This document shows, one piece after another, positions 1 through 1,205 of a stretch of DNA of 8,546 bases. Origin of the DNA: a virus (taxonomy: Duplodnaviria; Heunggongvirae; Uroviricota; Caudoviricetes). The position numbers and the translations under genes are program-made. The stretch is taken from IMG/VR virus record IMGVR_UViG_2531839200_000005; one strand, written 5' to 3'. Positions within the stretch are counted from its first letter, which is position 1, and each line of letters starts with the position of its first letter. The notes under the pieces were generated by a model. The model saw only the letters and a list, made by a program, of their open reading frames with translations. It did no database searches and was not told the DNA's origin.

Positions 1-283
1 CAACAGGGAGTACTGGCGACTCGTATGACAACGCGATGGCTGAGAGCATCAATGGTCTTTACAAAGCGGAGGTAATACACCGTAAGAGCTGGAAAAACCG
101 GACAGAAGTGGAACTGGCCACACTAACGTGGGTGGACTGGTATAACAATCGACGATTGCTGGAAAGGCTGGGCCATATTCCTCCGGCAGAAGCAGAAAAA
201 GCTTATTATGCTTCCATCGGAAATAATGATCTGGCAGCCTGAGTTCACAGATAAAATACTCTCCAGGAAACCCGGGGCGGTTC
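1..283 (+). mobile_element. Right (3') end of an IS3-family insertion sequence (IS629/IS3411-like), left part outside the window
   Basis: The sequence ends ...TCTCCAGGAAACCCGGGGCGGTTCA at 283, with the family-typical terminal 5'-CA-3'. Its reverse complement, TGAACCGCCCCGGG..., resembles the terminal inverted repeat I recall for IS629-group elements. The encoded protein fragment is a typical IS3-family transposase C-terminus. Lambda-like right-arm sequence resumes at about 284. The exact IS identity is from memory and not verified. Confidence 0.75.
3..242 (+). CDS. IS3-family DDE transposase (OrfB), C-terminal fragment; 5' end truncated by window edge
   Basis: Reading frame 3 from position 3 gives TGSTGDSYDNAMAESINGLYKAEVIHRKSWKNRTEVELATLTWVDWYNNRRLLERLGHIPPAEAEKAYY..., stop TGA at 240-242. 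The DSYDNA motif carries the catalytic glutamate of retroviral-integrase-like DDE transposases. The ORF track lists only the part from the internal Met at 36. Confidence 0.8.
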   Translation, partial: TGSTGDSYDNAMAESINGLYKAEVIHRKSWKNRTEVELATLTWVDWYNNRRLLERLGHIPPAEAEKAYYASIGNNDLAA

Positions 284-440
284 AATTCAGTGTCGCTGAT
301 TTGTATTGTCTGAAGTTGTTTTTACGTTAAGTTGATGCAGATCAATTAATACGATACCTGCGTCATAATTAATTATTTGACGTGGTTTGATGGCGTAGAT
401 GCACGTTGTGACATGTAGATGATAATTATTATCATTTTGC

Positions 441-447
441 GGGTCCT
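441..447 (+). other. cosQ-like element (approximate position)
   Basis: GGGTCCT lies about 24-30 bp upstream of the cohesive-end sequence, matching my recollection of where cosQ sits near the lambda right end. Exact boundaries are uncertain. Confidence 0.4.
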
Positions 448-470: not shown

Positions 471-482
471 GGGCGGCGACCT
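471..482 (+). other. cosN: 12-nt cohesive-end sequence GGGCGGCGACCT (terminase nicking site)
   Basis: Exact match to the lambda 12-nt cohesive end. It is preceded by ...GATCCGACAGGTTACG (lambda right-end sequence) and followed by CTCGCGGGTTTTCGCTATTTATGAAAATTTTCCGG (lambda left-end sequence). Confidence 0.9.
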
Positions 483-522
483 CGCGGGTTTTCGCTATTT
501 ATGAAAATTTTCCGGTTTAAGG

Positions 523-638
523 CGTTTCCGTTCTTCTTCGCCGTAACCTAATGTTTTTATTTAAAACACCCCCTGAAAAGAAAGGAAACGACAGGTGCTG
601 AAAACGGGCTTTTTGGCCTCTGTCGTTTCCTTTCTCTG
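523..638 (+). other. cosB: terminase small-subunit binding region (R3, AT-rich IHF-type segment, R2, R1)
   Basis: R3-like CGTTTCCGTTCTTCTTCG is at 523-540 (+). An AT-rich segment at 541-579 is in the position of the lambda IHF site I1. R2-like GAAAGGAAACGACAG is at 580-594 (inverted orientation). R1-like TGTCGTTTCCTTTCTCTG is at 621-638 (+). All lie between cosN and the nu1 start, as in lambda. Confidence 0.75.
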
Positions 639-659
639 TTTTTGTCCGTGGAATGAACA

Positions 660-1179
660 ATGGAAGTCAACAAAAAGCAGCTGGCTGACATTTTCGGTGC
701 GAGTATCCGTACCATTCAGAACTGGCAGGAACAGGGAATGCCCGTTCTGCGAGGCGGTGGCAAGGGTAATGAGGTGCTTTATGACTCTGCCGCCGTCATA
801 AAATGGTATGCCGAAAGGGATGCTGAAATTGAGAACGAAAAGCTGCGCCGGGAAGTTGAAGAACTGCGGCAGGCCAGCGAGACAGATCTCCAGCCAGGGA
901 CTATTGAGTACGAACGCCATCGACTTACGCGTGCGCAGGCCGACGCACAGGAGCTGAAAAATGCCAGAGACTCCGCTGAAGTGGTGGAAACCGCATTCTG
1001 TACTTTCGTGCTGTCGCGGATCGCAGGTGAAATTGCCAGTATTCTCGACGGGATCCCCCTGTCGGTGCAGCGGCGTTTTCCGGAACTGGAAAACCGACAT
1101 GTTGATTTCCTGAAACGGGATATCATCAAAGCCATGAACAAAGCAGCCGCGCTGGATGAACTGATACCGGGGTTGCTGA

Positions 1180-1205
<26 letters not shown>
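660..1205 (+). CDS. nu1: Terminase small subunit (gpNu1)
   Basis: 181-aa ORF, MEVNKKQLADIFGASIRTIQNWQEQGMPVLRGGGKGNEVLYD..., which I recognise as lambda Nu1. The N-terminal winged helix-turn-helix region is the cosB-binding domain. Same length and position relative to cos as in lambda. Confidence 0.95.

What the first reader, a model, noticed from the sequence alone, without database searches (positions are those of the whole stretch)
575..639. Perfect 15-bp inverted repeat (R2/R1 arms) with a 25-nt spacer directly upstream of the nu1 start
GAAAGGAAACGACAG (580-594) and CTGTCGTTTCCTTTC (620-634) are exact reverse complements. As DNA they are the oppositely oriented Nu1 binding sites. In the late mRNA the same sequence could fold into a long hairpin ending about 25 nt before the nu1 AUG. 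That may influence nu1 translation initiation or mRNA stability, a role separate from its DNA-level function.
Basis: partly seen in the sequence, partly recalled or inferred. Interest (0 to 1): 0.35.

Follow-up and report, generated by a model that had tools for sequence, protein, structure and literature searches.

The report
Lambda cosB terminase-binding inverted repeat
The inverted repeat is the well-known pair of small-terminase (Nu1) binding sites R2 and R1 in the DNA-packaging site of a lambda-like prophage; the RNA hairpin it would form in the late transcript is real on paper, but I found no sign that it controls nu1 expression.

Summary
Observation confirmed. The perfect inverted repeat is 16 bp (579-594 / 620-635), one more than reported. 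It has a 25-nt spacer and ends 24 nt before the nu1 ATG (660). It is the longest such repeat in the window; 100 shuffles reached only 8-12 bp.

The window is a lambda-type cos/nu1/A head-gene region in an E. coli prophage (lambda bp 1 = window 471). The arms are cosB elements R2 and R1. R3 (523-534) and an IHF-like site (549-561) lie upstream.

Across 174 unique related cos regions:
- The box sequence changes in R3, R2 and R1 together between packaging-specificity families.
- The R2-to-R1 span is fixed at 57 nt.
- Only the 9-12 bp box core stays complementary.
- N15-type phages lack R2/R1 altogether.

As RNA the segment folds into a 17 + 8 bp hairpin (-32.8 kcal/mol). In two of three modelled transcript contexts, removing or disrupting it left the cost of opening the nu1 ribosome-binding region at about 9 kcal/mol. 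G·U-type mismatches are not favoured over A·C-type, and covariation is not above controls.

Verdict: a known DNA element. The RNA role is an untested and probably minor by-product.

The parts
441..447 (+). cosQ-equivalent heptamer GGGTCCT (lambda bp 48473-48479 by offset)
   Evidence: Sequence read. The position comes from the lambda offset (window 471 = lambda bp 1). The identity of cosQ is from my own knowledge of the lambda literature and was not tested here.
471..482 (+). cosN cohesive-end sequence GGGCGGCGACCT (lambda bp 1-12)
   Evidence: Alignment to NC_001416 bp 1-12 and to phage 21. The phi80 record annotates the same 12 bases as the sticky end.
523..534 (+). R3 box CGTTTCCGTTCT, same orientation as R1
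   Evidence: Direct repeat of R1 at 92% identity (D2). It aligns with the annotated R3 of phage 21 and is conserved at a fixed 44-nt core gap from R2.
549..561 (-). IHF-consensus-like site at the position of I1, between R3 and R2
   Evidence: WATCAANNNNTTR with 1 mismatch. It lies where phage 21 I1 is annotated. The consensus match alone is not above chance across the window (38 found, 44 expected).
579..594 (-). R2 box (left arm), AGAAAGGAAACGACAG on the + strand; the 12-nt box core is 579-590
   Evidence: It aligns with the annotated R2 of phage 21 and is conserved in 174 unique relatives.
595..619 (+). R2-R1 spacer; partly self-complementary (597-604 / 610-617) with a 5-nt loop at 605-609
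   Evidence: The length is conserved (total R2-to-R1 span 57 nt) but the sequence is not.
620..635 (+). R1 box (right arm), CTGTCGTTTCCTTTCT; the 12-nt box core is 624-635
   Evidence: It aligns with the annotated R1 of phage 21. The literature describes R1 as an accessory TerS site (PMC4669245).
636..647 (+). Pyrimidine/U-rich tract CTCTGTTTTTGT directly after the hairpin
   Evidence: It is conserved in lambda-like relatives and weaker in phage 21-like ones. In the MFE fold it pairs with the nu1 AUG region.
650..652 (+). Weak Shine-Dalgarno GGA of nu1
   Evidence: The position corresponds to the ribosome-binding site annotated in Lambda imm434, OM418626.1 180-182.
660..1205 (+). nu1, small terminase subunit (TerS), the protein that binds the R boxes
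   Evidence: ORF found. Pfam Phage_Nu1 PF07471, E = 3.9e-101, full length. 98.9% identical to lambda Nu1.

Best explanation
The repeat is the R2/R1 pair of cosB, the packaging-initiation site of a lambda-type phage. It works as double-stranded DNA.

The winged-helix N-terminal domain of the small terminase subunit (gpNu1, encoded immediately downstream) recognises three copies of a roughly 12-16 bp box: R3, R2 and R1. R2 is inverted relative to the other two. IHF bends the DNA between R3 and R2 so that a gpNu1 dimer can dock on both boxes and position the large subunit on cosN for nicking. R1 is an accessory site that adds to efficiency.

The inverted orientation of two copies of one protein-binding box produces the inverted repeat. 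Because the late transcript from pR' reads through cos into nu1, the same sequence must also form a stable hairpin in the nu1 leader. That hairpin is most likely a by-product: a self-contained module upstream of the ribosome-binding region with little or no regulatory effect.

Shown here: identity, position and architecture; joint change of all three boxes across families; the predicted RNA fold and its lack of effect on modelled accessibility in most contexts tested. Taken from the literature: protein binding, the IHF bend and the accessory role of R1. Inferred: that the RNA hairpin is functionally neutral.
For: - Window 471-670 aligns base for base with lambda bp 1-201. The same R3-I1-R2-R1 order is annotated in phage 21 record M81255.
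- nu1 downstream is a full-length Phage_Nu1 protein.
- PMC4669245 describes cosB as three TerS sites with R2 opposite to R3 and R1, IHF site I1 between R3 and R2, and R1 as accessory.
- In 174 unique relatives the box sequence differs between specificity families (CGTTTCC in lambda-like, AGATCC in L216/L206-like, CATGTCGG in 21-like). It changes in R3 as well as in R2 and R1. An R2:R1 RNA helix would not require that; recognition by one protein does.
- Spacing is rigid: the R3-R2 core gap is 44, the R2-R1 core gap is 37, and the R2-to-R1 span is 57 nt in 58/67 lambda-like and 17/19 phage 21-like unique sequences. The spacer sequence, by contrast, is largely unalignable between lineages. This fits helical phasing of a nucleoprotein complex. 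A hairpin loop would not need it.
- Only a 9-bp core helix is conserved by RNAalifold.
- With the lambda hairpin imposed on 58 distinct lambda-like sequences, pairs 13-26 are unpaired in up to about 60% of sequences (about 10-60% depending on the pair). The two robust covariation measures are no higher than shuffles (12 vs 11.0 pairs; 32 vs 32.4 pair types).
- G·U-type and A·C-type mismatch states are equally frequent: 11 vs 9 and 13 vs 12.
- In the 460-720 and 560-720 contexts the nu1 initiation-region opening cost is 7.1-9.2 kcal/mol for wild type, complement-disrupted arms, restored pairing, deletion, and RNA starting after the hairpin.
Against: - The perfect complementarity in this lineage (16 bp) goes 4 bp beyond the box shared with R3. 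Weaker pairing continues through the spacer, including three G·U pairs that exist only on the transcribed-sense strand.
- Phage 21 proper shows the same pattern; its + strand hairpin is 10 kcal/mol more stable than the - strand version.
- R2 and R1 resemble each other more than either resembles R3 in both families.
- The + strand fold is the more stable one in 58/67 lambda-like unique sequences. These are not independent, and phage 21-like sub-lineages go the other way.
- In the longest modelled context, disrupting R2 raised the opening cost of the initiation region from 8.8 to 11-14 kcal/mol. Reversing the R2 arm raised it by about 1.6 kcal/mol in the shorter contexts.
- None of the protein-binding steps was tested here.
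Confidence: 0.85

Rival explanations
1. One reading: in the late mRNA the R2:R1 hairpin tunes nu1 translation initiation or stabilises the downstream message. It might do this by keeping the pyrimidine-rich R1 arm from pairing with the purine-rich Shine-Dalgarno region, or by acting as a barrier to RNases.
For: A stable hairpin is predicted (-32.8 kcal/mol alone; z = -3.9 in context). It ends at a nearly constant 22-28 nt from the AUG across families. It forms in the MFE fold of almost all complex-cosB relatives. In the longest context, R2-arm disruption raises the initiation-region opening cost by 2.5-5 kcal/mol. Lambda-proper and phage 21-proper carry + strand-only G·U pairs in the extended stem.
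Against: The stem excludes the SD and the AUG. Opening cost is essentially unchanged in two of three contexts and after deletion. The long stem is not conserved. There is no G·U over A·C bias and no covariation above controls. N15-type phages have no R2/R1 (PMC4669245). Lambda lacking bp 92-164 is rescued by a TerS missense change (PMC4669245). The constant distance to the AUG is equally explained by a compact cosB-nu1 module.
Confidence: 0.1
2. The hairpin plus the following CUCUGUUUUUGU acts as an intrinsic terminator or insulator. It would stop RNA polymerase that has not been modified by Q before it enters the terminase genes, limiting leaky terminase in a lysogen. Q-modified polymerase would read through.
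For: A strong stem is followed within 1-3 nt by a tract with 8 U in 11 nt. The U-run is conserved after R1 in nearly all lambda-like lineages. In this window an IS3-family element points toward nu1 from about 300 nt upstream.
Against: The consensus terminator scan did not call it; only a small inner 5-bp stem was flagged. The base of the stem is A-U rich and the stem is far longer than typical terminators. The U-run is weak in phage 21-like phages. The T/C-rich 3' flank is a property of all three R boxes, including R3, which is not in a hairpin. I know of no report of a terminator in cosB and found none.
Confidence: 0.06
3. The roughly 26-bp interrupted stem is an RNase III processing site that separates the lysis-gene part of the late transcript from the head-gene part.
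For: The predicted 17 + 8 bp coaxial stem with a single 1x1 mismatch has the length RNase III needs. Lambda uses RNase III hairpins elsewhere, for example sib and the N leader (my own knowledge).
Against: In most relatives the continuous stem is only 9-14 bp. No literature support was found. Nothing here tests cleavage.
Confidence: 0.04
4. The 4 bp of perfect symmetry beyond the box, and the symmetry in the spacer, come from DNA-level processes and not from selection on RNA. Candidates are an inverted-duplication origin of R2/R1, quasipalindrome correction by template switching, or a wider symmetric protein footprint on R2 and R1 than on R3.
For: R2 and R1 are more alike than R3 in both families. 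Both wobble-type and A·C-type intermediates occur at the same spacer positions in phage 21-like lineages: at positions 16 and 17, all four combinations G-C, G·T, A-T and A·C are seen. The overall counts of the two mismatch types are equal. That is what independent drift of two half-sites predicts.
Against: This is not a function in itself, and template switching cannot be shown from sequences alone. Lambda-proper polymorphisms inside the stem are mostly wobble-compatible, but the numbers are small.
Confidence: 0.3

Closest known systems
Bacteriophage lambda cosB (R3-I1-R2-R1), NC_001416 bp ~50-166
   Same: Same position relative to cosN and nu1. R2 and R1 have identical 16-bp sequences, the 12-nt R3 box is identical, and the downstream Nu1 protein is 98.9% identical.
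   Different: There is one base fewer in the R2-R1 spacer (57-nt span against 58 in the lambda reference), plus a few substitutions in the spacer and in the R3-R2 interval. An IS3-family element lies about 186 bp upstream of cosN.
Phage 21 cosB (M81255: R3 216-231, I1 238-252, R2 273-288, R1 316-331)
   Same: Same order, orientation and spacing of the boxes. The R2-to-R1 span is 57 nt, R1 is a similar distance from the start codon, and the R2-spacer-R1 RNA hairpin is equally long (-33.5 kcal/mol).
   Different: The box sequence differs (CATGTCGG core), matching a different TerS specificity. TerS is 53% identical.
N15-type simple cosB
   Same: Lambda-like cohesive end and a homologous TerS (54% identical in Enterobacter phage MStein-2023a).
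   Different: It has only an R3-like site, with no I1, R2 or R1. No hairpin therefore precedes the TerS gene (PMC4669245).
Regulatory 5'-leader or intergenic RNA hairpins in phages (lambda sib and N-leader RNase III sites, T7 RNase III sites)
   Same: A long, stable stem in a polycistronic phage transcript just upstream of a gene.
   Different: Those elements have demonstrated cleavage or occlusion and are conserved as structures. This one is conserved as protein-binding boxes, does not cover the SD or AUG, and shows no structure-specific covariation. No Rfam family matches: the best hit has E = 0.37 to a microRNA model on the opposite strand.

Membership tests
Lambda-type complex cosB R elements | Located between cosN (12-nt cohesive end) and the start of the small-terminase gene | tested here: met
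   cosN is at 471-482, the repeat at 579-635 and the nu1 ATG at 660.
Lambda-type complex cosB R elements | Three copies of one box, with R2 inverted relative to R3 and R1 | tested here: met
   R3 at 523-534 is a direct repeat of R1 at 624-635 (92%). R2 at 579-590 is the inverted copy of both (D2, I1, I2).
Lambda-type complex cosB R elements | IHF site (I1) between R3 and R2 | tested here: inconclusive
   A 1-mismatch match to WATCAANNNNTTR lies at 549-561 (- strand), in the expected place. Such matches are not above chance across the window. IHF binding was not testable.
Lambda-type complex cosB R elements | Cognate TerS with a Phage_Nu1 DNA-binding domain encoded directly downstream | tested here: met
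   PF07471, E = 3.9e-101, covering 1-164 of 164 profile positions.
Lambda-type complex cosB R elements | Box sequence co-varies with TerS specificity in all three boxes | tested here: met
   Lambda-like, AGATCC-type and phage 21-like families change R3, R2 and R1 together.
Lambda-type complex cosB R elements | gpNu1 binds the boxes, and the boxes are needed for efficient packaging | not testable with these tools
   Taken from the literature (PMC4669245).
Translation-regulating 5'-leader hairpin | The structure occludes, or controls access to, the SD or start codon | tested here: not met
   The stem is 579-635, the SD about 650-652 and the AUG 660. In the 460-720 and 560-720 contexts the opening cost of -18..+12 is 9.1 (WT), 9.1-9.2 (R2 arm complemented), 7.1-7.2 (R1 arm complemented), 8.8 (hairpin deleted) and 8.6 (RNA from 636) kcal/mol. 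Exceptions: reversing the R2 arm gives about 10.7, and in the 300-760 context R2 disruption gives 11-14.
Translation-regulating 5'-leader hairpin | The structure is conserved through compensatory changes beyond what the DNA function requires | tested here: not met
   Only the 9-bp box core is conserved. Pairs with a change on both sides number 12 against 11.0 in shuffles, and pair types 32 against 32.4. G·U vs A·C states are 11 vs 9 and 13 vs 12.
Intrinsic (Rho-independent) terminator | Compact G+C-rich stem, short loop, U-tract immediately 3' | tested here: inconclusive
   A U-rich tract at 636-647 follows the stem. However, the stem is 26 bp, interrupted and A-U rich at its base, and the consensus scan did not call it.
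RNase III processing site | About 20 bp or more of near-continuous dsRNA, with cleavage in vivo | not testable with these tools
   The predicted stem meets the length criterion. Cleavage cannot be assessed.
Any Rfam RNA family | Score at or above the family's gathering threshold | tested here: not met
   The best overlap is mir-578 on the - strand at 25.5 bits against a threshold of 98, E = 0.37.

The most novel reading that the evidence does not exclude
The R2-spacer-R1 hairpin in the late transcript has an RNA-level job of its own in lambda-proper and phage 21-proper, the two lineages with extended stems carrying + strand-only G·U pairs. It could be a Q-bypassed terminator or insulator that keeps unmodified polymerase out of the terminase genes. 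It could equally be a processing or stability element for the head-gene message. Either way, one sequence would serve both as a DNA packaging signal and as an RNA signal.
Probability: 0.1. Interest if true: 0.45.

Novelty: already known. Interest (0 to 1): 0.15.

Why it matters
As a DNA element it matters because cosB is what gives lambda-like phages, and the satellites that hijack them, their packaging specificity. That has been established for decades, and this window adds only another natural variant.

The RNA idea would be of modest interest if true. It would be an example of one sequence read at two levels, and it could explain how terminase expression is kept low or insulated in lysogens. 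My analyses make a strong effect unlikely.

The comparative by-products may be useful to people who work on cos recognition. These are the rigid 57-nt R2-to-R1 span across families with unalignable spacers, and the fact that R2 and R1 are closer to each other than to R3.

Tried and rejected
- **Rfam, permissive threshold:** nothing relevant.
- **Consensus terminator/promoter scan:** it called only a small inner stem (606-619) and unrelated sites, not the long hairpin.
- **Literature:** five full-text searches found no paper linking the cosB hairpin to nu1 translation, termination or RNase III; two searches were searches for the lambda late-gene expression papers. The two older papers most likely to bear on nu1 translation (Murialdo et al. 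1987 NAR 15:119; Sampson et al. 1988 PNAS 85:5439; both recalled from memory) are not held. PMC4856287 says nothing about cruciforms or transcription at cosB.
- **G·U impression:** my first reading, that all R2/R1 mismatches in relatives are G·U on the + strand (phage 21, L017, L019, phi80), did not survive the larger sample. A·C-type states are as common.
- **Strand asymmetry of folding energy:** it favours the + strand in most lambda-like sequences, but it depends on lineage and reverses in several phage 21-like groups. I do not count it as evidence.
- **nu1 initiation-region cost against other head genes:** nu1 is not unusual (about 9-10 against 7-17 kcal/mol). Several start codons were taken from the mechanical ORF list and are not curated, so I draw no conclusion.
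- **Locus searches:** the first viral-contig scan with the Nu1 alignment returned only sequences at least 99% identical. Diversity came from re-querying with phage 21, PhiR5_1 and phi80 TerS.
- **Window source:** the best full-length E. coli genome hit (H61) turned out to be a two-piece match at a different IS junction. I did not pin down the window's exact source.

Full report
**1. The observation**

The perfect repeat is one pair longer: 579-594 AGAAAGGAAACGACAG and 620-635 CTGTCGTTTCCTTTCT, separated by 25 nt. Weaker complementarity continues into the spacer, giving arms 579-604 / 610-635 that are 85% complementary with 5 nt between them. The nu1 ORF starts at ATG 660, which leaves 24 nt between the repeat and the start codon.

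This is the longest perfect inverted repeat in the window with a loop of 60 nt or less. In 100 dinucleotide-preserving shuffles the longest was 8-12 bp. It is not a chance feature.

**2. What the window is**

Positions 285 onward match lambda-like phages and E. coli prophages at 96-99.9% identity. Window 471 corresponds to lambda bp 1, the cohesive end GGGCGGCGACCT. The region up to the nu1 start aligns base for base with lambda apart from a few substitutions and one missing base in the spacer.

The downstream ORF is a full-length Phage_Nu1 protein (PF07471, E = 3.9e-101). It is 98.9% identical to lambda Nu1. ORFs at the positions expected for A, W, B and the further head genes follow. Positions 1-284 are the 3' end of an IS3-family insertion sequence.

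**3. What the repeat is**

Phage 21 record M81255 carries annotated protein-binding features in the order R3, I1 (IHF), R2, R1, I0 and then gene 1. In the three-way alignment the window's arms fall exactly on R2 and R1. A third copy of the box lies at 523-534 in the orientation of R1. A one-mismatch IHF consensus lies between it and R2, at 549-561.

The literature describes lambda cosB in just these terms. There are three TerS binding sites with R2 opposite to R3 and R1. IHF bends the DNA between R3 and R2 so that dimeric gpNu1 docks on both. R1 is a non-essential accessory site (PMC4669245).

**4. Comparative evidence**

I collected about 335 loci encoding Nu1 homologues from genomes, IMG/VR contigs and GenBank phages. 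They reduce to 174 unique cos-to-nu1 regions. Four results bear on the interpretation.

- **The box changes in all three copies together.** Lambda-like phages have CGTTTCC(T/G)TTCT. A second group has (T/G)AGATCC(T/G)TTCT. Phage 21-like phages have C(A/G)TGTCGG. In each family R3, which is not part of the hairpin, carries the same family-specific core as R2 and R1. Recognition by one protein explains this. An R2:R1 RNA helix would not require it.
- **The geometry is rigid.** The R3-R2 core gap is 44 nt and the R2-R1 core gap is 37 nt. The outer-to-outer R2-to-R1 span is 57 nt in 58 of 67 lambda-like and 17 of 19 phage 21-like unique sequences. Yet the spacer sequence is largely unalignable between lineages. 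Fixed spacing with free sequence is what helical phasing in a nucleoprotein complex predicts.
- **The long stem is lineage-specific.** Stems of 16-17 bp occur in lambda-proper and in one other lineage (L309/L319). phi80-like phages keep 12 bp, others keep 9-14 bp, and one Kosakonia prophage has a degenerate R1. RNAalifold on 28 representatives keeps only a 9-bp core helix.
- **N15-type phages lack R2 and R1 entirely.** Their TerS is 54% identical, and only about 77 nt separate cosN from the TerS start (PMC4669245).

**5. Is there selection on pairing as such?**

I imposed the window's hairpin on 58 distinct lambda-like 57-mers. Overall, 76% of cells pair, but pairs 13-26 are unpaired in up to about 60% of sequences. 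The two measures that are robust to relatedness are no higher than shuffles: pairs with a change on both sides are 12 against 11.0, and further pair types are 32 against 32.4.

RNA-level selection on the transcribed strand should favour G·U over A·C mismatches. Counting each position and state once gives 11 against 9 in lambda-like arms and 13 against 12 in phage 21-like arms. In phage 21-like spacers, positions 16 and 17 show all four combinations: G-C, G·T, A-T and A·C. That is the pattern expected when two half-sites drift independently.

The + strand fold is more stable than the - strand fold in most lambda-like sequences and in phage 21 proper. The reverse holds in several phage 21-like sub-lineages.

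Some features remain unexplained by the box consensus alone. R2 and R1 are more alike than R3. In lambda-proper and phage 21-proper the symmetry extends beyond the box, with G·U pairs specific to the + strand. An inverted-duplication origin, template-switch correction of a quasipalindrome, or a wider protein footprint could each account for this. A weak RNA constraint cannot be excluded.

**6. The RNA hairpin and nu1 translation**

Folded as RNA, 579-635 forms 17 pairs, a 1x1 mismatch, 8 pairs and a 5-nt loop. The 57-nt hairpin alone has an energy of -32.8 kcal/mol. It contains neither the Shine-Dalgarno GGA (650-652; compare) nor the AUG.

I computed the ensemble cost of making -18..+12 single-stranded, in three transcript contexts and for several variants.

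| Variant | Opening cost (kcal/mol) |
|---|---|
| Wild type | 9.1 |
| R2 arm complemented | 9.1 |
| R1 arm complemented | 7.2 |
| Both arms complemented | 9.0 |
| Hairpin deleted | 8.8 |
| RNA starting at 636 | 8.6 |

Reversing the R2 arm raised the cost to about 10.7 kcal/mol in the two shorter contexts. In the longest context (300-760), disrupting R2 raised it to 11-14 kcal/mol, because the freed pyrimidine-rich R1 arm finds other partners. The hairpin therefore behaves mainly as an autonomous module. At most it mildly insulates the initiation region.

Genetics points the same way. A lambda deletion of bp 92-164, which removes the whole hairpin, is suppressed by a missense change in TerS (PMC4669245). 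Its defect is in DNA recognition, and nu1 can be expressed without the hairpin.

**7. Other RNA-level readings**

The stem is followed by CUCUGUUUUUGU, so it looks loosely like an intrinsic terminator. At about 26 bp it is also long enough for RNase III. Neither reading has support beyond that resemblance:
- The consensus scan did not call it.
- The T/C-rich 3' flank is a property of every R box, including R3.
- The U-run is weak in phage 21-like phages.
- I found no literature on either idea.

I keep them as low-probability possibilities that end-mapping experiments could settle.

**8. Verdict**

The element is the R2/R1 part of lambda cosB, which is already known, and it works as a double-stranded DNA binding site for the small terminase subunit. 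The predicted RNA hairpin is a necessary consequence of two inverted copies of a protein-binding box lying in a transcribed leader. My modelling and comparative tests give no positive evidence that it regulates nu1. Interest is low. The residual novel reading, a dual DNA/RNA signal, has a probability of about 0.1.

Noticed in passing
window 1-284: This is the 3' end of an IS3-family insertion sequence. The transposase C-terminus ORF is 36-242, with Pfam rve_3/rve_2 matches. It abuts lambda right-end sequence, about 186 bp upstream of cosN, and has the same orientation as late transcription. It would lie between the late promoter/lysis genes and cos-nu1 in this prophage.
   Followed up: partly
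window 523-535 vs 578-590: R3 is 12/13 complementary to R2. In the transcript, an R3:R2 pairing made first during transcription could therefore compete with R2:R1. This is an attenuator-like topology that follows automatically from three boxes.
   Followed up: no
window 579-635 and homologous positions in L002-L334: The outer-to-outer R2-to-R1 span is 57 nt in 58/67 lambda-like and 17/19 phage 21-like unique sequences, although the spacer is largely unalignable between lineages. The lambda reference genome is an outlier at 58 nt (one extra G in the spacer).
   Followed up: yes
R boxes: window 523-534, 579-590, 624-635 and relatives: In both the lambda-like and phage 21-like families, R2 and R1 share bases at box positions 8-10 that R3 does not (lambda T-T-T vs G-T-T; phage 21 A-C-C vs T-A-C). 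R3 is thus a distinct subtype of the box.
   Followed up: partly
window 636-680: A second, weaker predicted hairpin pairs the U-rich tract after R1 with the nu1 start-codon region. The initiation region costs about 9 kcal/mol to open, which is within the range of the other head-gene starts in the window (starts not curated).
   Followed up: partly
window 408-435 (+): A sigma-70-like match (GTGACA, 16 nt, TATCAT; 10 of 12) lies between cosQ and cosN, pointing toward nu1. Such matches are not more frequent than in shuffles.
   Followed up: no
loci L007-L012, L015, L018, L021, L022: Near-identical lambda nu1 sequence sits on tiny contigs in assemblies of unrelated organisms (Kitasatospora, Chromatium, Paenibacillus, Bradyrhizobium, Ancylomarina and others). 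This most likely reflects lambda DNA contamination of those assemblies.
   Followed up: no
L037 (Escherichia phage PhiR12_5) 311-417: This is a different cosB layout with four copies of a CATGTCCGGTT box. Two of them overlap as a tight palindrome (398-417) about 40 nt before the TerS start. The inverted pair exists, but with quite different geometry.
   Followed up: no
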